Source: an uncultured Clostridia bacterium
GTDB taxonomy: Bacteria; Bacillota; Clostridia; TANB77; CAG-508
Assembly (NCBI GenBank): GCA_934122035.1
Contig: CAKOVP010000001.1
Coordinates: 60 to 64,059, forward strand
DNA length: 64,000 nucleotides
Reading direction: 5' to 3'
Shown here in pieces: positions 15,722 through 33,579 of this stretch (positions are counted from its first letter, which is position 1; each line of letters begins with the position of its first letter). The notes beneath the pieces are model-generated. The model was not told the origin of the DNA and did not search any database. It was given only the letters and a program-made list of their open reading frames with translations. Position numbers and translations under genes: made by a program.

Positions 15722-16921
15722 TCATGGTATCAAGTATAAAGTAGGGCGAGAACCATTGCCGCCGCCGATGCCGGTAGGATTGATGATGACACAAGCAGAA
15801 GCCGGATAGTAAGAACCATTGCCGCGGCCTCCTCTGAAAGCTCTGCTGCTGACTTCGGCGCCGGGGAGGCTGCCCGCTTCTTGGGTCCATTCCCAATAAT
15901 TTCCAGCAAAGTCATATATATTATTTGCCTTCCAACTTTCACTAAAGCCTGTATTTTGCTCACTTCCATGTCCATCTGCTGTATTGTTCTCGTAGTTTCC
16001 CCAAGAAGTTGAGTCTGTTATGTTAAATCCTGAACTTGCAAGCCATTTACATGTTGCATCCCACTGCAATCCCCATATCATTCTGGTTTTTACTTTTGAA
16101 CCTACAGTTAATGTTTTACAATTTTTATAGTGTTCATACCATGTTATACCTATTTGAGTAGCTCCTGTCTTCTCTCCATTTGCTGTTAACTCATATCTTC
16201 CTATATAAAATCCTTTATACTTCTCTATACTTCTTATCATTTCATCATATTCACTTACCATTGTCTCTGCCATATTTGCCAGACTACTAAATCCTGCTTT
16301 TTCTGCATTTGTGTCATTATCATATTCAGTTTCTATATCTGGCTCTCTAAAATCTGTGCTTCCCGGTAATCCTCTTGTATACCCACTTATTATTTCTGAA
16401 TTTGTATACTTTGTAGTTTTTACTCCTGTAGTTCCTGAAAGTGCTATTCCTTCTGTTACGGTTGTATATAAACTACTTGGTGTTTCTACTGGTACCCACA
16501 CCCATTGGTTTCCAGATAAATCTCTTCTTACATTTTCTTTTCCTTTATCTAATTCTTTATCTGCTACATTATCTGAAATTACTATTCCTTTTGCTTTTGT
16601 TCCTCCCACGTAATAGTAGCCTTCTGGTATTACTACATTTTCTACCGTTGTTTGTGAACTTCCAGAATTTCCTCCATTTCCAGAGTCTGTTTTATTTACA
16701 TAATTTGATAATTCTTGTTCTAAACTATTCATTGACTTTTCAGTATTTATTCTTGCTTGTTCTGTTTTGTCTCTTGCCTCCTGTGCTTTTGTTATTATTC
16801 CGTTTTCTCCTAATACTAAGTTAAGGCTTATTCCTGCTAGTATTAATAAAACAACTATTGTAACTACAAGAGCTACAAGCGTTATACCTCTGTTTCCTTT
16901 CATAAATTTTTTCTTTTTCAT
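15722..16921 (-). CDS. pilin-like N-terminal helix protein with C-terminal FGE-sulfatase (SUMF1)-type domain
   Basis: N-terminus 'KGNRGITLVALVVTIVVLLILAGISL' is class-III-signal/pilin-like without Glu+5. C-terminus has 'GNYWEWT', 'RAFRGG' and the 'GFYIGRYE' block typical of the FGE/SUMF1 fold. It is a paralog of 30553..32289. The 3' 170 bp are anomalously GC-rich. Confidence 0.6.
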   Translation of the reverse strand: MKKKKFMKGNRGITLVALVVTIVVLLILAGISLNLVLGENGIITKAQEARDKTEQARINTEKSMNSLEQELSNYVNKTDSGNGGNSGSSQTTVENVVIPEGYYYVGGTKAKGIVISDNVADKELDKGKENVRRDLSGNQWVWVPVETPSSLYTTVTEGIALSGTTGVKTTKYTNSEIISGYTRGLPGSTDFREPDIETEYDNDTNAEKAGFSSLANMAETMVSEYDEMIRSIEKYKGFYIGRYELTANGEKTGATQIGITWYEHYKNCKTLTVGSKVKTRMIWGLQWDATCKWLASSGFNITDSTSWGNYENNTADGHGSEQNTGFSESWKANNIYDFAGNYWEWTQEAGSLPGAEVSSRAFRGGRGNGSYYPASACVIINPTGIGGGNGSRPTLYLIP

Positions 16922-16950
16922 TTTTTTGTTTTTTCCTCCTTCTACTTTTG

Positions 16951-17149
16951 TTTCGTTAAGTATATAACTTAATCATAAGATACTTATACCATAAACATAT
17001 TATAAATTCAATAGAAAAGTATAATTTTAAATTATAAAAAATAGTATATAAATTCTTAAAAATTCATATACTATAAATACTTCTAAAGCAAGTAAATGTC
17101 TACAAATTTGGATTACTTACTTTATAATTAAGTTATATACTTAACGAAA
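16951..17149. other. candidate invertible DNA switch (23-bp perfect inverted repeats flanking a 153-bp promoter-bearing segment)
   Basis: IRL TTTCGTTAAGTATATAACTTAAT (16951-16973) and IRR, its exact reverse complement (17127-17149). The intervening segment carries TTGAAT-17nt-TGgTATAAG on the minus strand (-35 at 17006-17011, -10 at 16983-16988), firing toward the gene whose RBS and ATG lie 30 bp beyond IRL. Confidence 0.5.
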
Positions 17150-17257
17150 AAAGTTCACAAGTCTCTTAGAATAAAACTGGAATTTTAAAGTTTCAGTTTT
17201 TATTTTATTATTTGCAATTTTTACAATGATCAAGTTTGTAAGCTCTATTATAAAAAA

Positions 17258-17300
17258 AGATAACGATACTTAGTTTTTTTGTATCATTATCTTTTTATTT
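17258..17300 (-). terminator. hairpin terminator (bidirectional)
   Basis: AAGATAACGATAC...GTATCATTATCTT 13-bp stem with T-runs on both sides. Confidence 0.5.
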
Positions 17301-17356
17301 TGTGTTCAATCTGGATTTGAATTTAATTTTAAGTTTTATCCTTTAACTTTAATTTT

Positions 17357-17400
17357 CGCCCAAAAAGGGGCGTCCCCTTTGGGCGATTGGGGCGAATTTT
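17357..17400 (-). terminator. GC-rich hairpin terminator (mrnC/rbgA operon 3' end)
   Basis: CGCCCAAAAAGGGG-CGT-CCCCTTTGGGCG, near-identical to the hairpin at 9478-9506, with an extra GGGCGAATTTTT outer arm. Confidence 0.65.
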
Positions 17401-17420
17401 TCTATCTTGACAAAGTTTGT

Positions 17421-17861
17421 TTAAAGGCACATTTCTAGTATTTCTTTCAAGCGTTTGTCTTGTTTGCTTAGGTATAGGTATCCAATTAGAGCTTCAAATG
17501 CTGATGAATAGCTGTATTCTTCTACTGTAGAATTTTTTGGAACGTGATGGCTTTGTGCATTTCTGCCTCTTCTTACAATATCTTTTTCTTCGTCTGTAAG
17601 ATTGTCATATATTTTGTTTAGCACTTCTACTTGTCCATTTGCTTTTACATATTTTATTGCTTCTATATGTAGCATATGTGGCTTTAATTTTGTTGTATTT
17701 ACAAGATGCGTTCTAATAAATAGCTCGTATACAGCATCTCCTACATATGCCCAAGTTAGCGGTGGCATTAGTTTTACTTCTTCTAAATTTTTTTTTCTTT
17801 CTATTATTTCTTGCAATATTTTTACTTCCTTTTTATTCTTAAAATTTTTCTGCTTTTTCAA
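17421..17861 (-). CDS. mrnC: Mini-ribonuclease III (Mini-III)
   Basis: 'LTWAYVGDAVYELFIR...' RNase III catalytic-domain-only protein; the listed start overlaps rbgA, so the true start may be the internal Met. Confidence 0.75.
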   Translation of the reverse strand: MKKQKNFKNKKEVKILQEIIERKKNLEEVKLMPPLTWAYVGDAVYELFIRTHLVNTTKLKPHMLHIEAIKYVKANGQVEVLNKIYDNLTDEEKDIVRRGRNAQSHHVPKNSTVEEYSYSSAFEALIGYLYLSKQDKRLKEILEMCL

Positions 17862-18810
17862 TGGTTATCTTTCCAAGATTTCCGCTTCTATAGTCATCTA
17901 ATATTATTTTAGATGTTTTTTCTAAATCTACTTGATTGCCTCTTAGTTTAGCACCTCTTTTTTCTCCAATGTATTCCATTACTTCTGCAATTCTTTCGTT
18001 TTCTTCTAGTTCTTGGTTATTTAATATTTTTTCAACTATATCACTATTTAGCAAGTATCTGTCTATTACATTTTGTTTGTATTCTTCTAATAATATTTTC
18101 ATAAGATTATATGCTATTTCTTGTTGTTCTAGCACTTCACTTTTTATTGTTCCTGTATATGCTAAATTTAATGCAACCTTTTCATTGTCTAACTTTGGCC
18201 ATAAAACTCCTGGAGTATCTAATAATTCAACATTGTTTGATAATCGTATCCATTGTTTCTGTTTTGTAACACCAGGTTTATTTCCCACTACTGCTGAATT
18301 TTTTTGAGCTAGTTTATTTATTATAGATGATTTTCCAACGTTTGGAACTCCAATAATCATTATTCTAATTATTTTTCCTACTCTACCTTTATTTTCAGCT
18401 TTTTCTAAATCTTTTTTCATTATTTCATTTGCTGTAGGTATTATTTTTGAAACTCCTTCTCCAGTACTTGAATTGCATAGTATTGCAGGAATGTTCTCTT
18501 TTGCAAATTTAATTACCCATTTTTGATTTTCCTTTTCATCTGCCAAGTCTGCCTTATTTAAAACTACTATTCTTTTCTTATCTTTTATTAATTTTTTTAT
18601 CTCTGGGTTTTGGCTTGCCATTGGAATTCTAGCATCTAATAGTTCTACTACTATGTCTACAAGTTTTAAATCTTTTTGTATTTGTTCCATAGTCTTTTTC
18701 ATATGACCAGGAAACCAGTTTATATTATATTTACTATTTTCTTCTTTATTTTCATTTTTTGCTTTTTCTTGTCTCATTTTTCTTTTTTGATATATATCCA
18801 TATTTTTCAC
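17839..18810 (-). CDS. rbgA: ribosome biogenesis GTPase A
   Basis: Circularly permuted GTPase: 'VLNKADL' G4 precedes 'IGVPNVGKSSIINKL' G1 and 'LLDTPGVLWP' G3. Confidence 0.85.
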   Translation of the reverse strand: MKNMDIYQKRKMRQEKAKNENKEENSKYNINWFPGHMKKTMEQIQKDLKLVDIVVELLDARIPMASQNPEIKKLIKDKKRIVVLNKADLADEKENQKWVIKFAKENIPAILCNSSTGEGVSKIIPTANEIMKKDLEKAENKGRVGKIIRIMIIGVPNVGKSSIINKLAQKNSAVVGNKPGVTKQKQWIRLSNNVELLDTPGVLWPKLDNEKVALNLAYTGTIKSEVLEQQEIAYNLMKILLEEYKQNVIDRYLLNSDIVEKILNNQELEENERIAEVMEYIGEKRGAKLRGNQVDLEKTSKIILDDYRSGNLGKITIEKAEKF

Positions 18811-18931
18811 TTCCCATTTTTATAGTCTCATAGCTGTATTCCATTATAACATAAAAAGAGAGTTTCTTCTATCTCTCTTTTTATAAGTTACTATATTTAT
18901 TTTACAACTTTCATATTGTAAAATTTTTTAT

Positions 18932-19402
18932 TTATAATGTTCTATAGTTGTTTTTGTCTTCTCTTTCATCTTTTTTTATATCATATTTTTTATTTGTATA
19001 ATACCAATCTGTTTTTTTGTCTGTTGGATGTAATTGTTTGTTTTTGTCTAATAGCCAATCTAGCATTGTAAATATTGGTAGTGCAATTCCTATAAATGAG
19101 AAAAATACGTTCATATAGTTTGCTGCACTAATTTGTCCATTTGTTAATACTAAATTGTTCCATAAATCTACTCCAAAATATCCTAAATATGATACTAAAT
19201 ATAGAATTACTCCTAATAGTTTTCTTTTTGCTATTAGCACAAAACATAAAAGTGCTACAAATAGAAGCATTATTTCTGTGTTTAAGTTTATTGGTGTAAT
19301 CATAAAATCTATTGCCATTGCTGATGTGTATGTTGCAATTATTCTTACTATCCAAAATACTATATCTAATGATAAAACCATCCAAGTACTAAATTTTTGC
19401 AT
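18932..19402 (-). CDS. hypothetical 4-TM membrane protein
   Basis: 156-aa ORF with four hydrophobic segments; abuts the downstream pilin-like gene. Confidence 0.45.
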   Translation of the reverse strand: MQKFSTWMVLSLDIVFWIVRIIATYTSAMAIDFMITPINLNTEIMLLFVALLCFVLIAKRKLLGVILYLVSYLGYFGVDLWNNLVLTNGQISAANYMNVFFSFIGIALPIFTMLDWLLDKNKQLHPTDKKTDWYYTNKKYDIKKDEREDKNNYRTL

Positions 19403-19413
19403 TTTTTCTCCTC

Positions 19414-20775
19414 CTAGTATGTTATTTTAAATTTAGACATTTGATCTAACGGAATTGTTATAACTGGTCTAAATGTAATCTTTTTCTCATTTTCACCACC
19501 TAAATCTGTTGCTAGAACACAATCTAAATCTCCAATTCCACCATTTTTTATTACGTAAACTCCCCACATTGCCCATGCTGGGTCACAATATATTTGATAA
19601 GTAGCAACTTGATATGCAGCTGTTGTTCCAAATAATACATTATAAACATTTTCATCAGTATAATAATTTTTTGCAAAACTCATATTATATGTTAATAATG
19701 TTCCTTTAAACCCATGGTTTCTATTATAGGATGCAGTTGTTGGAGAGCTTTTGTGTTGTTGACTCCTTGTTGTTCCAGATGTTTGCCATCCAGCGCCTTG
19801 TTCTTCCCAATATAATGCTGGTGTGTAAAAATCACCATATGCAGAGTTGTATTCTAGTGTATATTGTTTTCCATAATTTGAGTCTCCCCATCCACTGGTA
19901 TGCCCTGCTTTTACACTTTTTCCTTCATCATTAAAGTTGGCTTCTATGTCTTCCATATTTAAGCATCTTGCAGTTGCTCCAACTTCTGTATTACTATATA
20001 GCTGAGAACATACATAATTCATATAATATATAGCATTGTTATATCCTTTAAATCCTTTTAAGTAAAAAGAACTGTTTGTTGCAGGTTCTGTTGTTGTAAG
20101 TTGTACTTGATTGTTTTCTTTGTCTATTTTTAATATCTTCCAAGTAACATTTACGTCTTCTGTAATTGTTTGGTCTGATGCATATCCACTATATTGAGCT
20201 TGTACTACACATGTTCTTGGTACTGGGGTGTAGTCAACTTTGTCACCTTGTTCCATTTTAGATATTCTTGTTGTCTTTTCAGCTGTTGAAACATTGCCTG
20301 CTTTATCGGTTATTTTTACTTTCATATTATATTTCACATTATTTTTTACATTTTTAAAAGTATAACTTTTAGCCTGATCATCTGTAGGATCTATTGTATA
20401 GTTTTCTCCTCCATCTGAGCTGTATTGAATTGTATCTATTCCAGACTCTCTCTCTGTAACATTAATACTTAGTTTTATTGCATCTTCTCCAATTATTTCC
20501 GTGTCAAAAGAGTTAATTGTTGGCGCATCTTTATCTTGTCTTATTATTACTTCATCATCTACATTTTCTGTTGCTTCTTTTTGTGCATTAATTATTTCTT
20601 GTGCTTCCTTTTGAGCAAGTTCTGTATTTTTATTTATCTCTTGGGCTGTTGATATAAGTCCATTATCTCCATAAATAGTACTCAAACTTATTCCTGCTAA
20701 TATTAATAATACAATACTTGTTATAGCCAATGCAATTAAAGTTACACCTTTTTCATCTTTATTTCTTATGTGCAT
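19414..20775 (-). CDS. pilin-like N-terminal helix protein with FN3/Ig-like middle domain
   Basis: N-terminus 'KGVTLIALAITSIVLLILAGISLSTIYGDNG' is nearly identical to the paralogs at 15722, 30553 and 32533. It has a Ser/Thr/Tyr-rich extracellular region; no FGE motifs seen. Confidence 0.55.
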   Translation of the reverse strand: MHIRNKDEKGVTLIALAITSIVLLILAGISLSTIYGDNGLISTAQEINKNTELAQKEAQEIINAQKEATENVDDEVIIRQDKDAPTINSFDTEIIGEDAIKLSINVTERESGIDTIQYSSDGGENYTIDPTDDQAKSYTFKNVKNNVKYNMKVKITDKAGNVSTAEKTTRISKMEQGDKVDYTPVPRTCVVQAQYSGYASDQTITEDVNVTWKILKIDKENNQVQLTTTEPATNSSFYLKGFKGYNNAIYYMNYVCSQLYSNTEVGATARCLNMEDIEANFNDEGKSVKAGHTSGWGDSNYGKQYTLEYNSAYGDFYTPALYWEEQGAGWQTSGTTRSQQHKSSPTTASYNRNHGFKGTLLTYNMSFAKNYYTDENVYNVLFGTTAAYQVATYQIYCDPAWAMWGVYVIKNGGIGDLDCVLATDLGGENEKKITFRPVITIPLDQMSKFKITY

Positions 20776-20808
20776 ATTTTTCTCCTTCTGTAAAATTATT
20801 AAGCGAAA

Positions 20809-20835
20809 GAAAATCTGATTTTCTTTCGCCTCAAA
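20809..20835 (-). terminator. hairpin terminator
   Basis: GCGAAAGAAAAT-ctg-ATTTTCTTTCGC perfect 12-bp inverted repeat. Confidence 0.5.
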
Positions 20836-20843
20836 ACTTTTTA

Positions 20844-21179: not shown

Positions 21180-21251
21180 ATTTATATTAATTTGTATTGC
21201 TACAATATTAAAATCTTTTTATTTATTATTCTACATTTTTTGCATTGATAT

Positions 21252-21674: not shown

Positions 21675-21675
21675 A

Positions 21676-21930: not shown

Positions 21931-21940
21931 AAAATACCTC

Positions 21941-23029: not shown

Positions 23030-23056
23030 AAAGTATCACCCCTTATGCTTGTTATT

Positions 23057-25486
23057 TTAAAAATTTCTTCTCATTTTATTAAGTGTTTCATTCATATTAT
23101 TATTAAATTGTGTACTAGATTGCTTTTTATTTGCTTTACTATAATCATTATAATTCTTTGGAGCACTGCTGTTTGCAATTAGTGGATATACCATATCTCC
23201 TAATTTATTTAATGCTGTTAAGAATGCTTTTGAATATCCTTTTAGTGTAACTTCACAATCAACTAATCTCTCCAAATATTTTGCATATGTTTGATCTTCG
23301 AATGGAATATTTGTATATCTTATTGTGTCTTTGTTAAATAAATTGTTTTGATATGTTGTTGCAGGATCGTTATAACAAGATATTCCTCCAATTACCATTC
23401 TGTCTGTTAGTTTTCTAAGATTTAATGTTTTATTTAATACAATTCTTAGTTTGCTTTCATCTAATACATTTTTGTGTTGTAATTCATTTAGAAATGCTGT
23501 TAAAGGCTGAATTGTAAGTATGTCGTATGTTTGTACTAGATATATTTCTTGTGCATTTACAAAATATTCTACATTTGTATTAAAATCGCAGTCTAATAAT
23601 ATTAAAGAATAATTTTCTGCAAGTGTTGATAATATATTCTCGCAATCATCTAGACTTGGATTATTACCAGGAAGTGTTGTGTACACAGTAAGATTTTTTC
23701 CTGCTGGTATTCCATCTGCAATTCCACTTCTTAGATTATCTATACAATTAAATGCTTTGTTTCTTAAGTTGTCATCATTCATATTGTAAATGTAATATGC
23801 ATTTTTATTTTCTGTAAGGTCTAATATTGCAGTCTTTATTCCTTTTTCTGATAGTAATGTTGCTAGATTGTTAACTAAGAATGATGTTCCGTTTTTTGAT
23901 GTTCCAACAAATGCAACTATCTTTTTATTTCCAACTAATAAATTAGAAAGATTGCTTCTTCTAGCTTCTGTATTATATAAGCTTGTTTGATTATTTTCTA
24001 CTTCATTATTAGTTTCAGAATAATTATTGTATGAATTATACATATTATTCTCATAGTTATTATTTATTGGTTTTAATTCTGGTTCTCTATATACTGGTTC
24101 GGCAACATTTTGTTTTTGCACTGTTTCTTCAAATCCTGGAAGGAAAGTATCATCTGCTTGGTTGCTACTTTCATTATTAGCTAGTCCAAATAAGTCTATT
24201 GGTTCTTCCTCAACTGGTTCCACTTGCTGTACTGGTTGTACTACTTTTTCTTCCTTATTTTTTTGTTGCTTATCATAACTACCTTCTGTTTCTTGAGGTC
24301 TATCAATTGGCTCTTCTTGAAGACCTGGTAAAATCATTTCTTCTGGTTCTACATTTTTCTTTGGTCTTCCTCTACCTCTCTTAGGTTTTTGAACTTCCTC
24401 TTGTACTGGTTCTGCAACCTCTTTTTTAGGACGTCCTCTACCTCTCTTAGGAGCTTCCTCTATTTGAACATTCTCTATGTTATTTAACTTTTCTTCTATT
24501 TCTTTTGAAGCTTCAAATGGTACTAGTTCTTCTACTGTTGGTTCAGCATTCTCTTTTGGTTCTAAAGCTCTTACTGATGGTGCAATTTTTGCCTTTGGTT
24601 CTTCTTTATATACTTTTTCTACATTTTGCAAGTTAACTGAAGAAGGTATTACTACAGGTTTTGTAATTTTTCCTTTTTGTAGTTGCTCATTTATTAGCCC
24701 TATTCTATTATTTTGAACTCCATTAATATCTCTAGTAACAATTCTGTTTTTCTGCTCTTGTGCTTGTTGTTCTTTTGCTTTTCCTTTTACACTTCCAATC
24801 ATTACTTGTTGATATTTAGGTGATTTTTCTTCTAACACAGCTCTAACATTTAATGGTAGTTTTGCAGCAATTATTTTTAATTGAGCTTGATTGTACTGAG
24901 CTGCAATATCATCAAAACTGTATACAAACCTTTCTTCATCATTGCCTAATCTTTTGTAATGTCTTATTATATTATTCATTTCATCCTCTGGCACTGTATC
25001 TGGGTTTACACTTTGATACTCAATATCATCGGATTCGATTCCATAATATACTTTTGCTTCTTTTTTTGTACGTGGCTGAGCGATCAGTCTGCAAACATTT
25101 TCCATACTTCTATCTCTGCCCAATAAAACATTGTATATTCCAATACCAAATAATTTTATTAATATTGAATCTTTTTTCTCTCTTCTATCTGTTGCAATTA
25201 AAATAATAGGTATGTCTCCTTCAGTACTGTTAGATGCTTCATCACTAATTGCATCTAATTTGTCGAAAAGGAAATTATCTATTACTTCGTAGTTATTGTT
25301 TGTGTATGGTTCCAAATCTTCTCCTATAACTATTCTGTCATAAGATTTATCCTTTTGTAATTCTTTAATTATTGCATTGAAATAATAAACATTTTTCCAA
25401 GAGATTATTTCTTTATACATTGATTGATATTTTTTAATAATTGACTCTGAAACATTTTCATTATTTACAGCGAATAAAACTTTCAT
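23057..25486 (-). CDS. TadZ/CpaE-like protein: atypical receiver-like N-domain, AT-hook-containing Pro/Glu/Lys-rich linker, C-terminal deviant-Walker-A ParA/MinD ATPase
   Basis: 809 aa; two 'KRGRGRPKK' AT-hook motifs; 'KKIVAFVGTSKNGTSFLVNNLA' deviant P-loop; N-terminus resembles a CheY-like pseudo-receiver. Confidence 0.5.
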   Translation of the reverse strand: MKVLFAVNNENVSESIIKKYQSMYKEIISWKNVYYFNAIIKELQKDKSYDRIVIGEDLEPYTNNNYEVIDNFLFDKLDAISDEASNSTEGDIPIILIATDRREKKDSILIKLFGIGIYNVLLGRDRSMENVCRLIAQPRTKKEAKVYYGIESDDIEYQSVNPDTVPEDEMNNIIRHYKRLGNDEERFVYSFDDIAAQYNQAQLKIIAAKLPLNVRAVLEEKSPKYQQVMIGSVKGKAKEQQAQEQKNRIVTRDINGVQNNRIGLINEQLQKGKITKPVVIPSSVNLQNVEKVYKEEPKAKIAPSVRALEPKENAEPTVEELVPFEASKEIEEKLNNIENVQIEEAPKRGRGRPKKEVAEPVQEEVQKPKRGRGRPKKNVEPEEMILPGLQEEPIDRPQETEGSYDKQQKNKEEKVVQPVQQVEPVEEEPIDLFGLANNESSNQADDTFLPGFEETVQKQNVAEPVYREPELKPINNNYENNMYNSYNNYSETNNEVENNQTSLYNTEARRSNLSNLLVGNKKIVAFVGTSKNGTSFLVNNLATLLSEKGIKTAILDLTENKNAYYIYNMNDDNLRNKAFNCIDNLRSGIADGIPAGKNLTVYTTLPGNNPSLDDCENILSTLAENYSLILLDCDFNTNVEYFVNAQEIYLVQTYDILTIQPLTAFLNELQHKNVLDESKLRIVLNKTLNLRKLTDRMVIGGISCYNDPATTYQNNLFNKDTIRYTNIPFEDQTYAKYLERLVDCEVTLKGYSKAFLTALNKLGDMVYPLIANSSAPKNYNDYSKANKKQSSTQFNNNMNETLNKMRRNF

Positions 25487-25489
25487 TTG

Positions 25490-26388: not shown

Positions 26389-26433
26389 AAAAAATAATCC
26401 ACCTTATATTTAGGATGGATTATTTTTATTTTT

Positions 26434-29394
26434 TTATTCTACAATATTAGAATTTTCTATAGTCTCATTATTTAAATTTTCGTTTATTGTGTTTTTATTT
26501 TCTTGCTCTTTTTTGTCTATTTCTTTTTTTAGTGCTTCTAGTCTATTTACTAATTCTTGTAGTTTTTTAGTGTCTTTTCCTATTTGTTCCCAATCATTGC
26601 TTTGTGTAGATGTTTTTAAGTTGTTATTTGCTTTTATTATTAAATTTACAAGTGTTTCTATGCTATCTGTATCTTGAACTTCTATATCTACGGCATTTTG
26701 AGAAACTAAGTTTGTTAATGCTTCTGCATAAGTATTTCCTATGGCAACTTTTGTTCCTGATGCAACAACTACTTTTTTAAGTACTGGTAATGAATCTGTT
26801 TCATTTACATATTGTTGATATATTGGCTCTATATATAGAAGTATGTTGTTTATTGGAACTATTATTATTTCTTTTGTAATTTTTGTTCCAGTAACATTTA
26901 TACTTTCTATCTCTTTTGAAATTGTTTCATCTTGACCTATTTGTGTATCTAATTGCATTGGTCCTAGTATGTTGCTATCTGTTGTATAATTGTATAATTT
27001 TAATACATTATTTCCATTTTCATCGCAAGAACCTACTAAATATGCTTTTAAATTTTGTTTGTCATATGGAGTGTAAGGAAGTACTAGTCCAAGTCTAGAT
27101 GTACTGCTATCTACAGTTTTTACCATTGTATAATATGGTTCTATGTCTTTTCCTTTTGTTGCAGTCATTTTACTGCTTGCATTGTGTTTTGCAACTTCCC
27201 ATACATCATCACTTCTATAAAGTACGTCTGGTTGTACGTTGTGATATCTTTCTAATATTTCTGCTTGAATTTTATATAAATATTCTGGATACACAAAATG
27301 ATTGCTTATATCTTCTGGAATTTCTTCTTCTGAGAATAAGTCTGGATATATGTTTTTGTATACCATTGCTATAGGGTCTGTTTTATCTGTAATATAGAAT
27401 GTTACTTCTCCTGAATATGCATTTATTATTACTTTTACAGAGTTTCTAATATAGTTAATTTCTTTTTTAGTTATTCCATTATTTTCTAGCATTGTTCTTT
27501 GCGAATATGGATAATTGTTTGTTGTTGTATAAGCATCTAATACCCATACAAGTTCTCCATTATTTGTTATTACCATATATGGATCTTCGTCGTAAGTTAA
27601 ATATGGCATAACTGTTTTTGCTCTTTGAATTACATTTCTGTTTGTTAAAATTTTGCTGTCACTTTTTACATTTCCAGATAATACTAGTTTTGCGTCTTTT
27701 TCTTTTATTGCAAGTACTATTCTATCTAAGAAATTTGCTGTTAGTCCTGCTTTTCCGTCATACACATTTTCTGCATTGCTTACTGCATCTTCTGTTGGAT
27801 AGTCGTATTCTTTTTTGCTGTTACTGTTTGTTACAACTGTGTCGTTTGTTTGTAATCCAAAGTATATTCTTGGTTCTTGTATATCTATTACTTCGTCTGT
27901 TTGTTCAAAAGATTTTTGAAGATGATTTATGTTTCCAGATGAAGTTACTGTACTTGCAGATGTTATTATTGCACCAAATCCGTGTGTGTATTCATATGTT
28001 TTGTTGTTATATGTTCCTTTAGAACTTGCTATTTCTCTTGGTGTTACATATACTAAACGTTGTTTTTCTTCTATAGAGTATACTCCTAATTGTGTGTTTT
28101 TGAATGTATAGTAACCTTTGCTTGTTTGAAGTCCTGTTAAGTCTTTTAATACAGTTTCTTTACTAACAATTGGTACATTGTTTATTGTATCTGAATTTTC
28201 TGTAATAGCACTTTGCGAAATTGTTCCACCGTCTGTAACTGTTGTTTCTTCTATATCAATGTCATAAGCTTTTTTTGTATTGCTTATGTTTTCTGCAATA
28301 AAGGTTCTTTCTTTATCAAGTTCATTTGAGTTTACAAATGTTAAGTTGAATCCAACCATTACTAGCATTAAACATACTAAATATGTTGGCACTATTAAAA
28401 TAAATTGAATTACTTTTTTAGTATTTCCTTTTCTGAACTGTTTTATTGCTTTAAATACAGAAAATACAATTATAAAGGCAAGAGCTACATAGCCCCATAA
28501 TCTTATTGTTGTTTCTGTAAGACCTGCACCAAATAATGAATAGTTTTCCGATTCATCATTATTTAGTATTAAGAATTTTTGTACTCCAACATTTTGAGTT
28601 TCTAATAGTACTAATGAAGCAAGTATGATTGTTAGTATTTTTATATTAGTTAAAGCCTGCTCTAATATAGGGCTCTTTTTAAAAGATTCCCTGCTTATTC
28701 CATCAAAATATATGTTAAATACAATTAAGTAATATATTACAGCATATATTGTTGATATAACTACTGATACTAAAGCATATAGAAGTACTAATTCCAAGAA
28801 TGGCCATATAAATACAAAATATCCTATGTCTAGCCCAAGAACTGGGTCTGTAGCAACAAATTGAGTGCTATTAAAGCAAGGAAGTGCCTTTTCCAAAATC
28901 ATTCCAGATGTTGTAATTGTTACTAGTATTGCTACTATGAAGGATATTGATTTTTGTGGTAATTTGGGCATTTGCTTTTTTTCGTCATCGAAAAATGTTT
29001 TTAATCCTTTTTTTACTCTTGATGTAGTAATATACATTATGCTAAATGATAGTACAAAATTGATTATTGCTGTTATAGAAATGTTTTGCAAATTCTGCCA
29101 AAATATTGAAATGTAGTTTTCTCCAATTTCTTTAATTTCTAGATATTCGCCTCTTTCTACTACATAAGCAATTATTAAAGCGATTGCAAATACAGCAAGA
29201 ACAATTCTTCTTCTTGTTTTGCTTTTCTTTATTTTTTCCTCATTTGCAACTAAATTCACATTTTCTATATTTTCATCTTTTGAATTTTCTCCATTTTTAT
29301 TTTCTTTAATTTCTTGATTTTCTTCTGGTTTGTTAGATTCTACTTCATTTGTTGTTTGTTTTATTTCTTCATTATTTTGTTTTTTTTCTTTCAA
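26434..29394 (-). CDS. UPF0182-family large membrane protein (COG1615)
   Basis: 986 aa; N-terminal polytopic membrane region plus a large extracytoplasmic domain, typical of clostridial UPF0182 proteins. Confidence 0.65.
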   Translation of the reverse strand: MKEKKQNNEEIKQTTNEVESNKPEENQEIKENKNGENSKDENIENVNLVANEEKIKKSKTRRRIVLAVFAIALIIAYVVERGEYLEIKEIGENYISIFWQNLQNISITAIINFVLSFSIMYITTSRVKKGLKTFFDDEKKQMPKLPQKSISFIVAILVTITTSGMILEKALPCFNSTQFVATDPVLGLDIGYFVFIWPFLELVLLYALVSVVISTIYAVIYYLIVFNIYFDGISRESFKKSPILEQALTNIKILTIILASLVLLETQNVGVQKFLILNNDESENYSLFGAGLTETTIRLWGYVALAFIIVFSVFKAIKQFRKGNTKKVIQFILIVPTYLVCLMLVMVGFNLTFVNSNELDKERTFIAENISNTKKAYDIDIEETTVTDGGTISQSAITENSDTINNVPIVSKETVLKDLTGLQTSKGYYTFKNTQLGVYSIEEKQRLVYVTPREIASSKGTYNNKTYEYTHGFGAIITSASTVTSSGNINHLQKSFEQTDEVIDIQEPRIYFGLQTNDTVVTNSNSKKEYDYPTEDAVSNAENVYDGKAGLTANFLDRIVLAIKEKDAKLVLSGNVKSDSKILTNRNVIQRAKTVMPYLTYDEDPYMVITNNGELVWVLDAYTTTNNYPYSQRTMLENNGITKKEINYIRNSVKVIINAYSGEVTFYITDKTDPIAMVYKNIYPDLFSEEEIPEDISNHFVYPEYLYKIQAEILERYHNVQPDVLYRSDDVWEVAKHNASSKMTATKGKDIEPYYTMVKTVDSSTSRLGLVLPYTPYDKQNLKAYLVGSCDENGNNVLKLYNYTTDSNILGPMQLDTQIGQDETISKEIESINVTGTKITKEIIIVPINNILLYIEPIYQQYVNETDSLPVLKKVVVASGTKVAIGNTYAEALTNLVSQNAVDIEVQDTDSIETLVNLIIKANNNLKTSTQSNDWEQIGKDTKKLQELVNRLEALKKEIDKKEQENKNTINENLNNETIENSNIVE

Positions 29395-29410
29395 ACTAAT
29401 TCCTCCAATC

Positions 29411-30316
29411 TTAAATTAAAGCTTTTACAAAGTCCTCACTATTAAATATTTCCATATCGTCTATTTGTTCACCTACACCAATAAATTTTACTGGTACTTT
29501 ATTTTCGTTTACAATTCCTATAACGCTACCACCTTTTGCTGTTCCATCTAGTTTTGTAAGTATTATGCCTGTAATATCTACTGTCTCTTTAAATGCTTGT
29601 ACTTGAGATATTGCATTTTGACCTGTTGTAGCATCTAAAACCATTAACACTTCTTCTGATGCATCTGGTAATTCTTTATCTATTACTCTTTTTATTTTTA
29701 CAAGCTCATCCATTAAATATTTTTTATTATGAAGTCTTCCTGCAGTATCACAAATTAGAACATCTGCATTTTGTTCTTTTGTGATTTTTATTGCATCATA
29801 TACAACAGATGCAGGGTCTATTCCCTCTGCTCTTTTTACTATTTGGCATCCGCTTCTATTTGCCCAAATTTCTAGTTGTTCTACAGCTGCTGCTCTAAAA
29901 GTATCGGCTGCTGCAACAACAACTTTTTTTCCATCTTTTTTTAGTCTATTAGCAATTTTTCCAATTGATGTTGTTTTTCCAACTCCATTTACTCCAACTA
30001 CTAATATTACAGCTGGTTTTGTTTGTAATTTTAGGCTAGAATCTGTTTCATCAAAAATCTCTTTAATTTCTTTTCTTAAAGCTTCCTTAACTTGCTCTGC
30101 ATCTTGGATATTTTCTTTTTTTATTCTTTGTCTTAGTTTCTCTATAATATCTGCTGATGTATTTGCTCCAACATCAGACATTATTAGTGCTTCTTCTAGT
30201 TCTTCTAATAAATCTTCATCTACTTTTCTAAAATTACTAAATATATTGTTCATTTTTTCATCAAATGATGTTTTTGTTTTGTTTAAGCCATTTTTTAATT
30301 TATCAAAAAATCCCAT
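29411..30316 (-). CDS. ftsY: signal recognition particle receptor FtsY
   Basis: 301 aa; SRP54-type NG domain 'VGVNGVGKTTSIGKIA...DTAGR...TKLDGTAKGG'. Confidence 0.9.
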   Translation of the reverse strand: MGFFDKLKNGLNKTKTSFDEKMNNIFSNFRKVDEDLLEELEEALIMSDVGANTSADIIEKLRQRIKKENIQDAEQVKEALRKEIKEIFDETDSSLKLQTKPAVILVVGVNGVGKTTSIGKIANRLKKDGKKVVVAAADTFRAAAVEQLEIWANRSGCQIVKRAEGIDPASVVYDAIKITKEQNADVLICDTAGRLHNKKYLMDELVKIKRVIDKELPDASEEVLMVLDATTGQNAISQVQAFKETVDITGIILTKLDGTAKGGSVIGIVNENKVPVKFIGVGEQIDDMEIFNSEDFVKALI

Positions 30317-30370
30317 TATTCTTTTCCTTTCGTATGTTAATTATAGTTAACCTTTTCTATTTTACCATAA

Positions 30371-30402
30371 AATGCAAAAAAATACTAGAGGAAAATAAAT
30401 AA
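30371..30402. terminator. perfect hairpin between ftsY and the pilin-like gene
   Basis: ATACTAGAGGA-aaataaataa-TCCTCTAGTAT. Confidence 0.4.
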
Positions 30403-30552
30403 TCCTCTAGTATGTTAATCATCACCGCAATTGTCACAGCCAAAGATATTAACGTTACTCCTTCTTCTTTGTTTAATCTATTCCTCTAAAATTATTTTCC
30501 TCCTTCAAGGTATACTTGTTAGAATTTGTATATAATGTGTAGAATTCAGAAT

Positions 30553-32289
30553 TTATAAAAATAAAGCAATTCTGAAACCAGTACTATCATTTGCACTATC
30601 AGAAGTATAACCTCGTGAATTAGCAGATGTTCGACCAGAAATTCCTCCATAACTGCCTCCTCTTGAGACAATTTTTGAAGTATCAGAATATTTTTCAGTT
30701 GTCATTTCTGCTACATTTCCAGCAATGTCATAAATATTTTTTATTACACTAGAACAGCCAGTTGTAACTAATATTGATCTACTCACCATTTTTCCTGCCT
30801 CGTTGCCTGAAAAGTCAATATATCCAACATAAGTGTTATAAAAATTACCAGGCATCTGTCTCCACTCAGTATAAGAAATGCCTTCATTTTTTGGTATAAA
30901 TGTCATCATTGCATCCCAAGCATAACTACTTGGCAATTTAAAATTTAATTCATTCCCATGTTTTATTTTAAAACTTTTTACTAATTCTTGTGCTTGTGCC
31001 AATGTTACATAATTATATGGTGCTTGTCCTCTTTTTATTGTTACAGTGTTAGTTGTTGAAGAATTTTCATCTCTATAGTTTTTTGACTCTGTACTCTCTT
31101 TATCTCCAGCTTCATACCTTCCAAGGTAAAATCCTTTATACATGTCTACACTATTTTTTTCATCATCTGGTAACTTCTCTGTAAAATATTTTGTATTTGA
31201 ACTACTAAAATTTATTTTTTCAGAATTTGTCTCTGTATCTATTTCACCAGTTGCAACCTGAGAACCACTAGCAACTCTTTTATAGTCTTTTATATCATCT
31301 ACAGGTATCCAAACAAATTGATTGCCTACTAAATCAGTACCAACACTAGTAGCTCCACTATATTTATTTTCATCCTCTTTTTCATCCGAAATTATTAGCC
31401 CCCATTTTCTTGTTCCTCCAACATAGTAAAATCCATCTGGTATTATTACTCCATCTATCATATTGTCCACAATATATACGCCTTTTCCAAATGTTACGTC
31501 TGTTATTGCGCCTTCTTCTCTTCCATCTGCTTGTTGTCCTGATATATTAACAGCTATTTTATCTCCTGCTGAAAGTCCACTATCTGCTGATATTGTGTAA
31601 CTTGCTGTTCCTATTGTACCATTCCAAGTAACTGTAACTTCCGTATTATTTATTTTTACTGTAGGTGTTTGAGTTAGTTCATAGTTTGTTATTATTCTTA
31701 ATGTTACCTTATCTCCAAGTGTAGCTTTGTTCTTATTAGATCCATTGCTTTGCATTGTAACAGATGCAACTATGGGAAGATCTGTTTTTTTATAATAATT
31801 TCCAGCAACAAAGTCATCTGTTAAAGTATAATATGTTATTCCATTTATTGTAATTCCTTTTACATAGTATACTGTTAAACTAACATCATCAACAACATAC
31901 AAATCAGTTGTTGTATAATTTTTTTGTTTATTTCCTTCGCCATTATTTAATTCAACGTCTAGTAAGTCTGTTTTTATTGGATAATAGTTGCCTCCATCGT
32001 TTACGTTTTTCATATCTGAGCTTATATTTAAAGCTATTTTAGTACTAGTATCTATTGGTAATGTTCCATTATTCAAATAATATACTTTTACTTCTTCTGT
32101 TAGAGTTACTATATCTTCTTTTACTTCATTAAATCTTTTTAATTCTGTGCTAGTCGATAAACTTGATGTTATAGATATTACCAGAATCATCATTACAACT
32201 ATTGTAACAACTAAAGAAATTAATGTTACACCTTTTTCGCTTTTTAGGTTTTTATGCATCTCTAATCGCATTCCTCCTTCTAGGCACAA
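30553..32289 (-). CDS. pilin-like N-terminal helix protein with Ig-like domain and C-terminal FGE-sulfatase (SUMF1)-type domain
   Basis: N-terminus 'KGVTLISLVVTIVVMMILVISI'. C-terminus has 'FKLPSSYAWDAMM', 'GNVAEMT', 'SRGGSYGG' and 'GFRIALFL', which are hallmark FGE-fold motifs. The probable start is the Met at 32259, giving MHKNLK. Confidence 0.65.
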   Translation of the reverse strand: MCLEGGMRLEMHKNLKSEKGVTLISLVVTIVVMMILVISITSSLSTSTELKRFNEVKEDIVTLTEEVKVYYLNNGTLPIDTSTKIALNISSDMKNVNDGGNYYPIKTDLLDVELNNGEGNKQKNYTTTDLYVVDDVSLTVYYVKGITINGITYYTLTDDFVAGNYYKKTDLPIVASVTMQSNGSNKNKATLGDKVTLRIITNYELTQTPTVKINNTEVTVTWNGTIGTASYTISADSGLSAGDKIAVNISGQQADGREEGAITDVTFGKGVYIVDNMIDGVIIPDGFYYVGGTRKWGLIISDEKEDENKYSGATSVGTDLVGNQFVWIPVDDIKDYKRVASGSQVATGEIDTETNSEKINFSSSNTKYFTEKLPDDEKNSVDMYKGFYLGRYEAGDKESTESKNYRDENSSTTNTVTIKRGQAPYNYVTLAQAQELVKSFKIKHGNELNFKLPSSYAWDAMMTFIPKNEGISYTEWRQMPGNFYNTYVGYIDFSGNEAGKMVSRSILVTTGCSSVIKNIYDIAGNVAEMTTEKYSDTSKIVSRGGSYGGISGRTSANSRGYTSDSANDSTGFRIALFL

Positions 32290-32532
32290 ATAAGGTTGAT
32301 AAATTTAATTATATTTCAACCTCTTAGCCTTTCTTCTGTATACATTTTTCTTTATAATATCATACCATTGGTGTAGTTTCAATAAATAAATTAATTTGTA
32401 ATAAATTTGTAATTTTTTAATTTTGTTGCTTTTGGCCATGGATAATTTCTAAATTATCTTGAAAAAAAAATTTTGCTGTGTTAGTATGTAATTAATATTA
32501 TTTAACAATATTTTATAAGTTAGGAGAAAAAA

Positions 32533-33030
32533 GTGAGAAAAGATAGTAAAATAAGTGGAATAACTTTAATATCCTTAGCTGTGACTATTAGTGTATTAAT
32601 TATTTTATCTGGAGTAACAATAAGTAATTTATTGGGAGAGGATGGTATATTAGAAAAATCAAATCATCAAAAAGAAAAGAGTATGGTAACAATATATAAA
32701 AACCGTATAGAAACAGTAATAAATGAAAGTAAATTAAAATATAGTACAGATAATTTAAGCCTCGCAGAATTAAATGTTGAATTTAATAATAAAGAATGGG
32801 CAAGTAGCATGAGAATAACAGAGAGTGGAACAGATAAGCTACAAGTAAAAACAAATGATGGTTACTTTTTTTATGTAACTGAAAAGTCTATAGAATATAA
32901 AGGTACAAATCAAGAGGATAAGGAAGAGATTAAAATTCCAACGTCAGATGAAATATCGTACACTCCGAAAGATACAAATTGGCATGTGACTACAGTGAAA
33001 GAAGCAATAGATTATTTGATGAATAACTAA
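32533..33030 (+). CDS. pilin-sized protein with the family's conserved pilin-like N-terminus
   Basis: 165 aa; GTG start with RBS AGGAGA; 'ISGITLISLAVTISVLIILSGVTISNLLGEDG'. Confidence 0.55.
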   Translation: MRKDSKISGITLISLAVTISVLIILSGVTISNLLGEDGILEKSNHQKEKSMVTIYKNRIETVINESKLKYSTDNLSLAELNVEFNNKEWASSMRITESGTDKLQVKTNDGYFFYVTEKSIEYKGTNQEDKEEIKIPTSDEISYTPKDTNWHVTTVKEAIDYLMNN

Positions 33031-33054
33031 AATGTGTGAAAGGAAGTAATAAAA

Positions 33055-33579
33055 ATGAGATTTATAAGAAAAAATATTAAATTGATTATAGGGATAATAA
33101 TAGGTATAACTATTACAAGTTGCATAAGTGTATATGCCACATATACATACTTTGCAGATGAAGTAAAATATACTGATAATAAAAGTGTAAAACAAGCGTT
33201 GGATGAATTATATGCAATGAAAAACAGCAATGCAGAATTGGATAACTTAAAAAAACTATTAAATCAAACTAATGCAACTTCGCAAGATATTTTAAATGGG
33301 AAAATAGCATATAGTGGCGGAAATCTAATTACAGGAACATTAAATACAGAAAAAAATTGGACATTAGTAATATCATATAAAATATACTTAGGCTGGAATG
33401 GAAATACAGGATATGGATATAATGAAGGTAAAATTACAGTAAAAAATAAAGATGGAAACAGAACAATAGTTAACAGTGGCGGTTCATTAGCGAGTGCAAC
33501 TGAAAATTGGAATGGAAATTATAGTATAAACTCAAATATTGCAGATGTTAAAATTGAATCGTTTACAATAGATGAATAA
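33055..33579 (+). CDS. hypothetical secreted protein with N-terminal hydrophobic helix (possible minor pilin)
   Basis: 174 aa; N-terminus 'IKLIIGIIIGITITSCISVYA'; RBS AAAGGAAG. Confidence 0.45.
   Translation: MRFIRKNIKLIIGIIIGITITSCISVYATYTYFADEVKYTDNKSVKQALDELYAMKNSNAELDNLKKLLNQTNATSQDILNGKIAYSGGNLITGTLNTEKNWTLVISYKIYLGWNGNTGYGYNEGKITVKNKDGNRTIVNSGGSLASATENWNGNYSINSNIADVKIESFTIDE

What the first reader, a model, noticed from the sequence alone, without database searches (positions are those of the whole stretch)
15722..33579. Dispersed paralog family with a near-identical pilin-like N-terminal helix lacking Glu+5; two members carry FGE/SUMF1-type C-terminal domains
Four genes (15722..16921, 19414..20775, 30553..32289, 32533..33030) share the N-terminal block K-G-[IV]-T-L-[IV]-[AS]-L-[AV]-[IV]-T-I-[VS]-V-[LM]-[LMI]-I-L-[AS]-G-[IV]-[ST]-[IL]-S...G-[ED]-[ND]-G. 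This resembles a class III (prepilin) signal and hydrophobic helix, but the canonical Glu at +5 is replaced by Ala or Ser, as in minor pilins and pseudopilins of the GspK type. Their C-terminal regions diverge. Two have the motifs of the formylglycine-generating-enzyme fold (GNxWEWT, RGGS, GFR), one has FN3/Ig-like modules, and one is pilin-sized. A minor-pilin-like module fused to a large FGE-fold domain is not a combination I recognise. The copies are scattered between conserved housekeeping operons; for example, one replaces the mltG position after DUF1292. No pilus assembly ATPase or prepilin peptidase is in the window.
Basis: partly seen in the sequence, partly recalled or inferred. Interest (0 to 1): 0.7.

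Follow-up and report, generated by a model that had tools for sequence, protein, structure and literature searches.

The report
Hypermutated pilin-like surface binding proteins
Four scattered genes in an uncultured gut Clostridia genome share a type IV pilin-like front end, and one of them carries a binding domain whose tip is rewritten by a diversity-generating retroelement, so these bacteria appear to mount a hypervariable binding domain on a pilin-like stalk.

Summary
Four ORFs share a class-III-signal-like N-terminus (K/R leader, Gly-1, [IV]-T-L, about 20 hydrophobic residues) with Ala or Ser instead of Glu at +5. Two of them (p1 15722-16921, p3 30553-32259) end in an FGE-sulfatase/C-type-lectin (CLec) fold.

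p1's FGE-fold domain is not an enzyme. It is the variable protein of a diversity-generating retroelement (DGR).
- Its last ~150 nt are A-poor with NNC/NNT codons.
- 117 orthologs are hypervariable at about 22 interleaved positions.
- A template repeat I predicted from the sequence occurs in 10 metagenome contigs, beside a reverse transcriptase, bAvd and a p1-like target.
- Across 7 variable regions, 87% of substitutions fall on template adenines.

No template or reverse transcriptase lies in the window, so p1 is a remote target. p3 is not diversified.

The N-terminal module is very widespread in gut Clostridia MAGs. A 70-aa member sits inside a pilD-pilB-pilT-pilC operon in relatives. Pilin processing and pilus display remain inferred.

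This is a new variant of known kinds (DGR target plus modular pilin). Interest 0.6.

The parts
15722..16921 (-). p1: pilin-like N-terminus, Gly/Ser/Asn linker and CLec/FGE-fold domain carrying a DGR variable region. It is a remote DGR target.
   Evidence: ORF. More than 7900 homologues, none with a Pfam hit or a name. The syntenic ortholog in another strain is only 84% identical while neighbouring genes are 98-99.4% identical.
16823..16921 (-). p1 class III-like signal: leader MKKKKFMKGNRG, putative cleavage after Gly12, then ITLVALVVTIVVLLILAGISL (Ala at +5).
   Evidence: Sequence. Pfam N_methyl 17.3 bits, below the 21.2 cut-off. 86% DNA identity over 99 nt to the 70-aa pilin gene of the T4P operon in L008-L010.
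15725..16645 (-). p1 CLec / FGE-sulfatase-fold ligand-binding domain (residues 93-399).
15734..15890 (-). p1 variable region (VR), residues ~344-396.
   Evidence: A content falls to 0.15-0.28 and C rises to 0.27-0.30, with NNC/NNT codons. Entropy is 2.5-3.4 bits at about 22 positions in 117 orthologs, against 0.1-0.4 elsewhere. Aligned to the metagenomic TR there are 28 mismatches at TR adenines and 6 elsewhere, plus a 15-nt insertion and a 6-nt deletion.
15606..15733 (-). Conserved 3' flank of the VR: end of the coding sequence, stop codon and two hairpins. Candidate cis element for mutagenic homing.
   Evidence: ~80% identical to the flank of cassette-adjacent targets and nearly invariant for ~60 nt across 7 loci. 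Folds at -18 kcal/mol, z -3.96.
19414..20775 (-). p2: pilin-like N-terminus, Ig-like (Big_13-like) domain and a 285-aa C-terminal domain of unassigned fold. Not diversified.
   Evidence: 67 members in its 90% cluster, 99% identical across strains. The C-domain family occurs behind the same N-terminus in L011, L022, L024, L030, L033, L040 and L066. No Pfam or PDB match.
30553..32259 (-). p3: pilin-like module, a beta-rich middle region and a CLec/FGE-fold domain without signs of diversification.
   Evidence: Identical over 1707 nt in a second sample. Normal base composition. The 16-18 differences in close variants are scattered, not concentrated in a VR.
31780..32259 (-). p3 N-terminal pilin-like module (residues 1-160): leader, Gly-1, 52-residue alpha-1 helix and a beta-sheet.
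30556..31458 (-). p3 CLec/FGE-fold domain.
   Evidence: 28% identity to the p1 domain, E 2e-23. PF03781 E 1.1e-3 on residues 519-575. Weak match to SUMF2.
32533..33030 (+). p4: pilin-sized member, with the N-terminal module plus a domain homologous to the first ~180 residues of p2.
   Evidence: Narrow distribution, only 6 homologues. 24 members in its 90% cluster.
30357..30485 (-). Start-less remnant of a fifth N-terminal module (..EEGVTLISLAVTIAVMINIL..*).

Best explanation
The four genes belong to a very large family of surface proteins of uncultured, low-GC gut Clostridia. Family members share a type IV pilin-like N-terminal module (class III-like signal plus a long alpha-1 helix, with Ala or Ser instead of Glu at +5) and carry different extracellular modules.

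p1 is the variable protein of a diversity-generating retroelement. A reverse transcriptase copies a template repeat (TR) with errors at adenines. The cDNA then overwrites the last ~150 nt of p1, randomising about 22 residues on the binding face of its C-type-lectin/FGE-fold domain.

Shown here:
- the CLec/FGE fold of the p1 domain;
- the hypervariability pattern among p1 orthologs;
- the adenine-specific relation of the p1 VR to a TR found in metagenome contigs;
- RT, bAvd and MutS_I cassettes next to p1-like, pilin-fronted targets in relatives;
- conserved hairpins in the 3' flank of p1.

Inferred:
- the window's own genome has such a cassette elsewhere, acting on p1 in trans (probability about 0.7; the window's VR has two indels relative to the TR, so it may no longer be rewritten);
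- the N-terminus is cleaved by the PilD-type peptidase encoded in the clade's pilM/N-pilin-pilD-pilB-pilT-pilC operon;
- the proteins are then presented on or by a type IV filament, plausibly as Glu5-less tip subunits, or remain as membrane-anchored stalks (about 0.55 for pilus-dependent presentation).

p3 carries a non-diversified paralog of the same domain on a fuller pilin module. p2 and p4 carry Ig-like and unassigned modules.
For: Fold:
- AF2 pLDDT 93.7.

Variable region:
- A-poor, C-rich 3' end with NNC/NNT codons.
- Entropy of 2.5-3.4 bits at about 22 positions, interleaved with invariant RGG/GS/PAS/PT/SRPTLYLIP, in 117 orthologs.
- p1 is 84% identical between strains whose neighbouring genes are 98-99.4% identical.

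Template repeat and cassettes:
- The pattern GCTTCTNNNNNNAAYAAYAAYAAYCCTACC, derived only from the VR, hit 10 metagenome contigs.
- Each hit lies in an Asn-codon-rich repeat. On the five contigs with enough intact flank (L100, L101, L103, L104, L106) an RT ORF or RT fragment lies beside it.
- L103 holds a full cassette: a pilin-fronted p1-like target, then the 136-aa MutS_I protein (42.5 bits), bAvd (68.6 bits) and a 339-aa RT (RVT_1, 84 bits). L101 holds the same genes after the 3' end of a p1-like target.
- Over 7 VRs, 181 of 374 TR-adenine positions differ, against 26 of 543 non-adenine positions.
- Two further pilin-fronted targets with adjacent cassettes: L069 (22 of 25 mismatches at A) and L075 (21 of 22).
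- Conserved hairpin-bearing flank downstream of the VR.

Pilin link:
- Invariant Gly-1/Thr+2/Leu+3 block.
- N_methyl scores of 13-19 bits, just under the cut-off, and four short family members that carry PF07963 in precomputed hits.
- The 70-aa member P0248 lies inside a T4P operon.
- The L027 operon, and L011 with PilT/PilC on the same 531-kb contig as three dispersed paralog loci.
- Glu5-bearing homologues of the p3 module.
Against: - No RT, Avd or TR is in the window, nor in the ~15 kb of its contig outside the window that I read.
- The cognate TR comes from other samples, and I could not show that it belongs to this genome.
- The window's VR has a 15-nt insertion and a 6-nt deletion relative to the TR, unique among 117 orthologs. 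This copy may be a decaying or stalled target.
- Glu5 is absent in 112 of 112 family ORFs in 77 genome loci (the scan pattern itself required Ala or Ser at +5, so this count is biased).
- Pfam N_methyl and TIGR GspG are below their thresholds.
- p1 has no globular pilin head, only a helix and a linker.
- The genes are dispersed among housekeeping operons, not in pilus loci.
- PilD, PilB and PilC were found only in related genomes. The only link to the window's species is co-occurrence in one sample (L010 and L090).
Confidence: 0.72

Rival explanations
1. The N-terminus is only an uncleaved signal anchor. The proteins are type II membrane proteins that hold binding domains (one of them DGR-diversified) on a helical stalk at the cell surface, with no role for prepilin peptidase or a type IV filament.
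For: No Glu5 anywhere in the family. Pfam N_methyl is below its cut-off. The genes are dispersed outside pilus loci and the window has no pil genes. p1, p2 and p4 have no recognisable globular pilin head. DGR surveys report that most cellular targets simply have an N-terminal TM segment or signal peptide (PMC8144416).
Against: An anchor alone would not need the strict conservation of Gly-1, Thr+2 and Leu+3 and of a short basic leader. A member made of the module alone is encoded directly upstream of pilD in a pilM/N-pilD-pilB-pilT-pilC operon. Homologues of the p3 module carry Glu5. The p3 module model has the 52-residue alpha-1 helix plus beta-sheet of pilins.
Confidence: 0.25
2. The C-terminal domains are membrane-anchored FGE/SUMF1-type or EgtB-type enzymes that modify a substrate at the cell surface.
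For: GNxWEWT, RGG and GFR motifs. Weak PF03781 hits. FGE, SUMF2, EgtB and OvoA appear among the fold matches.
Against: No cysteine is invariant or nearly invariant in the 26-sequence alignment of the domain family, so the Cu-binding Cys pair of FGE is absent. The region equivalent to the active site is the hypervariable stretch. The best fold match is a DGR variable protein. The non-catalytic FGE-fold proteins SUMF2, TvpA and PorK are the best sequence matches.
Confidence: 0.02
3. The hypervariability of the p1 C-terminus comes from recombination among paralogs or ordinary diversifying selection, not from a retroelement.
For: The middle of p1 is also diverged between strains (10-20 differences per 60 nt). 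Module swapping between paralogs occurs (P0286). The window's VR has indels relative to the TR.
Against: 87% of 207 substitutions in 7 VRs fall on TR adenines, which make up 41% of the TR. Third codon positions stay C or T. The TR was predicted from the VR and then found next to an RT and bAvd.
Confidence: 0.03

Closest known systems
DGR variable proteins with an FGE-type C-type-lectin fold: TaqVP (Thermus aquaticus, 5vf4), TvpA (Treponema denticola, 2y3c), Mtd (Bordetella phage BPP-1, 1yu0)
   Different: The N-terminal part is a type IV pilin-like module rather than a lipoprotein signal (TvpA) or a phage tail-fibre trimerisation domain (Mtd); these two comparators are from my own knowledge. 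The window's copy has no adjacent cassette. Sequence identity is 16-19%.
Bacteroides type V pilus adhesins diversified by DGRs (bioRxiv 10.1101/2024.11.15.621889)
   Same: Gut commensals that aim a DGR at the adhesive component of a pilus-type surface structure (abstract).
   Different: That pilus is a different, unrelated class (type V, chaperone-less strand exchange) in a different phylum. The preprint does not mention type IV pilins, Firmicutes or Clostridia.
Modular type IV pilins PilB and PilC of Streptococcus sanguinis (PMC8179133, PMC9934059; reviewed in PMC10191384)
   Same: A pilin N-terminal module with a grafted adhesive domain, in a monoderm organism, thought to be tip-located.
   Different: By my recollection the S. 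sanguinis modular pilins have canonical class III signals with Glu5; I did not check this here. They carry a full pilin domain and lie in the pil locus. Here Glu5 is missing, p1 keeps only the alpha-1 helix, the genes are dispersed, and one module is hypermutated.
Glu5-less tip minor pilins (GspK / PilK / PilX-type)
   Same: No Glu at +5. The review states that the tip complex is capped by a subunit lacking Glu5 (PMC10191384).
   Different: No sequence or domain similarity to GspK. In this clade nearly the whole family lacks Glu5, including the 70-aa operon member, so the absence does not single out a cap subunit.
Formylglycine-generating enzyme SUMF1 and its paralog SUMF2 (1y4j)
   Same: The same fold. 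SUMF2 is the best sequence-profile match in the PDB (E 2e-4).
   Different: No catalytic cysteines. The equivalent region is hypervariable. The role is binding, not catalysis.
Tad-like pilus cluster and 'pilin 938' of the gut clade TANB77 (PMC11680825)
   Same: Possibly the same bacterial order. That rests on my recollection that Clostridium sp. CAG:273, one of the genomes hit, is placed in TANB77/CAG-508 by GTDB; I did not test it. Both concern pilin-like proteins of uncultured gut Clostridia.
   Different: That cluster is TadA/TadB/TadC-based, with 143-236 aa pilin-like proteins. The operon found here is PilB/PilT/PilC/PilD-based, and the family here has a different N-terminus.

Membership tests
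DGR variable protein (target) | C-terminal C-type-lectin / FGE-type fold that tolerates variation | tested here: met
DGR variable protein (target) | Variable region that matches a template repeat, with differences concentrated at template adenines | tested here: met
   The TR was found in 10 metagenome contigs from a pattern predicted from the VR. Window VR: 28 A-site and 6 non-A mismatches. Seven VRs pooled: 181 of 374 A sites differ against 26 of 543 non-A sites. Caveats: the TR comes from other samples, and the window VR has two indels.
DGR variable protein (target) | Population-level hypervariability confined to the VR | tested here: met
   117 orthologs: 2.5-3.4 bits at about 22 positions within residues 343-389, against 0.1-0.4 bits in the body of the protein.
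DGR variable protein (target) | Reverse transcriptase, accessory protein (Avd) and TR near the target | tested here: not met
   None in the 64-kb window. They are present next to paralogs and orthologs in L069, L075, L101 and L103. p1 would therefore be a remote target.
DGR variable protein (target) | RT/TR cassette present elsewhere in the same genome | not testable with these tools
   Only the 79.5-kb contig of this MAG is reachable.
DGR variable protein (target) | IMH-type 3' boundary and a downstream hairpin | tested here: inconclusive
   TR and VR are identical through ..GGTTCTCGCCCTACT and then diverge. The ~116-nt flank with two hairpins is conserved in 7 loci, z -3.96. Its function was not tested.
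Type IV pilin / class III signal peptide protein | Short basic leader ending in Gly, followed by about 20 hydrophobic residues | tested here: met
   Read from the sequence.
Type IV pilin / class III signal peptide protein | Glu at position +5 of the mature protein | tested here: not met
   Ala in p1, p2 and p4; Ser in p3. In 112 family ORFs: 106 Ala, 5 Ser, 1 Val (the seed pattern was biased to Ala/Ser). Homologues P0313 and operon gene g152 have Glu.
Type IV pilin / class III signal peptide protein | Curated profile (Pfam N_methyl PF07963; NCBIfam pilin or pseudopilin models) above its threshold | tested here: not met
   17.3, 13.2 and 14.7 bits against a cut-off of 21.2; p4 has no hit. TIGR01710 21.9 against 88.85. 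Four short relatives carry PF07963 in precomputed hits.
Type IV pilin / class III signal peptide protein | Alpha-1 helix of about 53 residues packed on a beta-sheet head | tested here: inconclusive
Type IV pilin / class III signal peptide protein | Genomic association with prepilin peptidase, assembly ATPase and platform protein | tested here: inconclusive
   Absent from the window. In relatives a family member lies in a pilM/N-pilin-pilD-x-x-pilB-pilT-pilC operon. PilT/PilC lie on the same 531-kb contig as 3 paralog loci. The same species was not shown.
Type IV pilin / class III signal peptide protein | Cleavage and N-methylation by prepilin peptidase; polymerisation into a filament | not testable with these tools
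   Requires biochemistry.
Formylglycine-generating enzyme (SUMF1) family | FGE-sulfatase fold | tested here: met
Formylglycine-generating enzyme (SUMF1) family | PF03781 above its gathering threshold | tested here: not met
   p3 19.1 against 23.3 bits; p1 no hit. 7 of 26 relatives reach E <= 0.01. The L075 target scores 25.1 bits.
Formylglycine-generating enzyme (SUMF1) family | Conserved catalytic cysteine pair (copper site) | tested here: not met
   No cysteine is among the invariant or nearly invariant columns of the 26-sequence alignment. The corresponding stretch is hypervariable.

The most novel reading that the evidence does not exclude
A widespread clade of uncultured gut Clostridia uses a Glu5-less, largely alpha-1-only pilin module as a general display scaffold. 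Through it, dozens of dispersed genes per genome are presented on a PilB/PilT/PilC type IV filament, and DGRs hypermutate the lectin-fold members. That would give these bacteria pili with programmable binding specificity. It would be the first case of retroelement-driven diversification of type IV pilus subunits, and a monoderm counterpart of the DGR-diversified type V pilus adhesins of Bacteroides.
Probability: 0.4. Interest if true: 0.8.

Novelty: new variant of a known kind. Interest (0 to 1): 0.6.

Why it matters
DGRs are the only known bacterial system of targeted protein hypermutation, and the gut holds the highest density of them. For Bacteroides the targets were recently tied to type V pili. 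For the abundant uncultured Clostridia the targets have only been described as membrane-anchored proteins.

If the anchor is a type IV pilin module, hypermutated binding domains would be carried on a retractile filament. This bears on adhesion to mucus, food particles, other cells or phage, and on how small-genome gut Clostridia adapt within a host.

It also raises a question about pilus assembly. An entire, very large pilin-like family lacks the Glu5 that is considered central to subunit docking.

Practically, the hypervariable gene breaks metagenome assemblies and is unannotated in public data: no Pfam hit and no name for more than 7900 relatives.

Tried and rejected
- Phage origin: tblastn of p1 against 50,697 phage records found nothing.
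- TR in the window: direct-repeat search around p1 and self-BLAST with an adenine-bias filter over the window and 87 loci found TR/VR pairs only in L069 and L075, none in the window.
- The L075 and L069 TRs are not p1's template. BLAST of the p1 VR against all held loci matched neither TR, only p1 copies and the variable regions of other p1-like genes.
- p3 as a second DGR target: rejected. It is identical in two samples, has normal composition, and its differences are scattered.
- p2 C-terminal domain: I suspected a DUF1566-like CLec domain from its ..FRPV.. ending. There was no support from Pfam, the PDB profile search or hhalign against the CLec family.
- p4: only 6 homologues, too few for a useful model. 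I modelled the p3 pilin module instead.
- FGE enzyme reading: rejected, because there is no cysteine pair.
- Rfam and tRNA scans: nothing near the genes.
- The TANB77 'conserved pilin' paper describes a Tad-type cluster, not this family.
- Linking the pil operon or the DGR cassette to the window's own species failed. L005-L007 are only ~79% identical to the window. The pil loci share no long DNA with it. There is only one shared sample (L010 and L090).
- Literature searches for DGR together with type IV pilins returned no paper describing such targets.


Full report
OBSERVATION. The four ORFs are present as described. Their N-termini are:
- p1: MKKKKFMKGNRG|ITLVALVVTIVVLLILAGISL
- p2: ..DEKG|VTLIALAITSIVLLILAGISL
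- p3: ..SEKG|VTLISLVVTIVVMMILVISIT
- p4: ..KISG|ITLISLAVTISVLIILSGVTI

Ala or Ser stands at +5 in all four. Pairwise BLASTP E-values on these segments run from 2e-14 to 2e-6. A fifth, start-less remnant lies at 30357-30485. p1 and p3 also share a ~310-residue C-terminal domain (E 2e-23), and p4 is homologous to the first ~180 residues of p2. The window is otherwise housekeeping: RNase Y, recA, dnaG, sigA, ylqF, ruvX, ftsY, glycolysis genes, and spoVG, spoVS and spoVT. It has no pilB, pilC or pilD. It comes from a 79.5-kb contig of a gut metagenome assembly with 28.6% GC.

p1 IS A DGR TARGET.
- The last ~180 nt of p1 stand out in this AT-rich genome. A content drops from ~0.4 to 0.15-0.28, C rises to 0.27-0.30, and the codons are NNC/NNT.
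- In 117 orthologs the body of the protein is nearly invariant (0.1-0.4 bits). About 22 positions between residues 343 and 389 carry 10-17 different residues (2.5-3.4 bits), interleaved with invariant RGG, GS, PAS, PT and SRPTLYLIP.
- A strain whose neighbouring genes are 98-99.4% identical has a p1 that is only 84% identical, and its VR differences sit in codon positions 1 and 2.
- Self-comparison of related loci gave two textbook cassettes. In L069 a 607-aa pilin-fronted target is followed by the VR, a TR, bAvd and an RT, with 22 of 25 mismatches at TR adenines. In L075 the count is 21 of 22.
- I wrote the expected template for p1 as Asn codons at the hypervariable positions between invariant bases and scanned the metagenome contigs for it. 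Ten contigs matched. Each match lies in a 139-nt repeat rich in AAC/AAT. An RT ORF or RT fragment lies beside the repeat on the five contigs with enough intact flank. L103 carries a full cassette: a pilin-fronted p1-like target, a 136-aa MutS domain I protein, bAvd (68.6 bits) and a 339-aa RT (RVT_1, 84 bits). L101 carries the same genes after the 3' end of a p1-like target.
- Over seven VRs, 181 of 374 TR-adenine positions differ, against 26 of 543 other positions.
- The ~116 nt downstream of the VR, with two hairpins, is conserved between cassette-adjacent and remote copies.

The window holds no TR or RT, and homology to the cassette loci stops 116 nt after the stop codon. p1 is therefore a remote target. 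Its VR carries a 15-nt insertion and a 6-nt deletion relative to the TR, unique among orthologs, so current activity on this copy is uncertain.

p3 shows none of these signs. It is identical over 1707 nt in a second sample, its composition is ordinary, and its differences are scattered.

THE N-TERMINAL MODULE. A profile of the four N-termini finds 5800 proteins. The best-scoring are 52-125 aa proteins that consist of the module alone. One of them, the 70-aa P0248 seen on 141 contigs, lies in an operon: a PilM/N-like gene, two small genes, P0248, prepilin peptidase (A24_N_bact, 102 bits), two pilin-sized genes with Asp or Glu at +5, PilB, PilT and PilC.

A scan of GTDB species representatives gave more than 595 matches among the pattern hits. 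All 80 retained loci are from uncultured gut Clostridia or closely labelled MAGs from human, mouse and rabbit samples, including Clostridium sp. CAG:273. Several loci fall in the same genome, and tandem sets of 2-5 genes are common. In total 112 ORFs were counted, mostly 200-700 aa, all with Ala, Ser or Val at +5. On one 531-kb contig PilT/PilC and three paralog loci coexist.

MECHANISM.
Shown: the CLec fold, the adenine-specific VR/TR relation, the cassettes beside pilin-fronted p1-like targets in relatives, and the operon context of the N-terminal module.
Inferred: (a) a cassette elsewhere in this genome rewrites p1 in trans through the conserved 3' flank; (b) the PilD-type peptidase cleaves after the conserved Gly; (c) the proteins are presented by the type IV machinery. 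A tip position would fit the rule that the cap subunit lacks Glu5 (PMC10191384). However, almost the whole family lacks Glu5, so that absence cannot single out a cap subunit. The main rival is a plain membrane anchor with no pilus involvement (about 0.25).

COMPARISON AND NOVELTY. CLec-fold DGR targets (Mtd, TvpA, TaqVP), remote targets, bAvd and MutS-like accessory genes are known; the last item is from my own knowledge of DGR surveys. Modular pilins are known (PMC8179133). DGR-diversified pilus adhesins are described for Bacteroides type V pili (bioRxiv 10.1101/2024.11.15.621889), and that preprint does not mention type IV pilins or Firmicutes. The global DGR survey notes only N-terminal TM segments or signal peptides in cellular targets (PMC8144416). 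I found no paper that joins DGRs with type IV pilin-like targets. The finding is therefore a new variant of known kinds, not a new category. The FGE enzyme reading is excluded.

Noticed in passing
window 30357-30485 (-): A start-less, ~42-codon remnant of the pilin-like N-terminal module (RNRLNKEEGVTLISLAVTIAVMINIL..stop) lies between p3 and ftsY. It is a decayed fifth paralog.
   Followed up: partly
protein P0286, compared with window 30553-32259: P0286 has the first 265 residues of p3 (about 12 differences) joined to a p1-type, VR-bearing CLec domain ending SRPTLYLIP. The paralogs therefore exchange modules.
   Followed up: partly
L089-L091 (p1 orthologs cut after 242, 140 and 60 codons); window end at 64000: Assemblies break inside or next to p1. 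The window's contig ends 229 nt past the window beside rlmN, where a related species (~79% DNA identity) carries a 77-aa short pilin-like gene (P0198).
   Followed up: partly
L103 1587-1997; L075 11838-12308: The DGR cassettes of this clade carry a 136-156 aa protein upstream of bAvd and the RT. In L103 it is a MutS domain I protein (PF01624, 42.5 bits).
   Followed up: partly
L103 62-1500: The cassette-adjacent p1-like target has an in-frame stop codon inside its VR. This may be a product of mutagenesis or an assembly of mixed alleles.
   Followed up: no
between window 18811 and 18931, compared with L088-L094: A strain-variable insertion hotspot lies between the 156-aa membrane protein gene and ylqF. 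L088-L091 have Bro-N plus recombinase Zn-ribbon genes, L092 and L093 have RhuM, L094 has KilA-N genes, and the window has nothing.
   Followed up: no
window 23057-25486 (-): An 809-aa protein has no Pfam family apart from two AT-hook-like PKRGRGRPKK repeats. Its C-terminal third looks ParA/MinD-like by eye.
   Followed up: no
window 14238-15284 (-): A cytidylate-kinase-like protein carries an unassigned ~150-residue C-terminal extension.
   Followed up: no
window 19414-19920 (-), p2 residues 169-453: A 285-residue domain is found behind the same pilin-like N-terminus in at least 8 other loci. It has no Pfam, PDB or CLec-profile match, so its fold is unknown.
   Followed up: partly
window 33055-33579 (+): A 174-aa protein with an ordinary N-terminal TM anchor sits directly downstream of p4 and is conserved with it (27 members in its 90% cluster). 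It has no family match.
   Followed up: no
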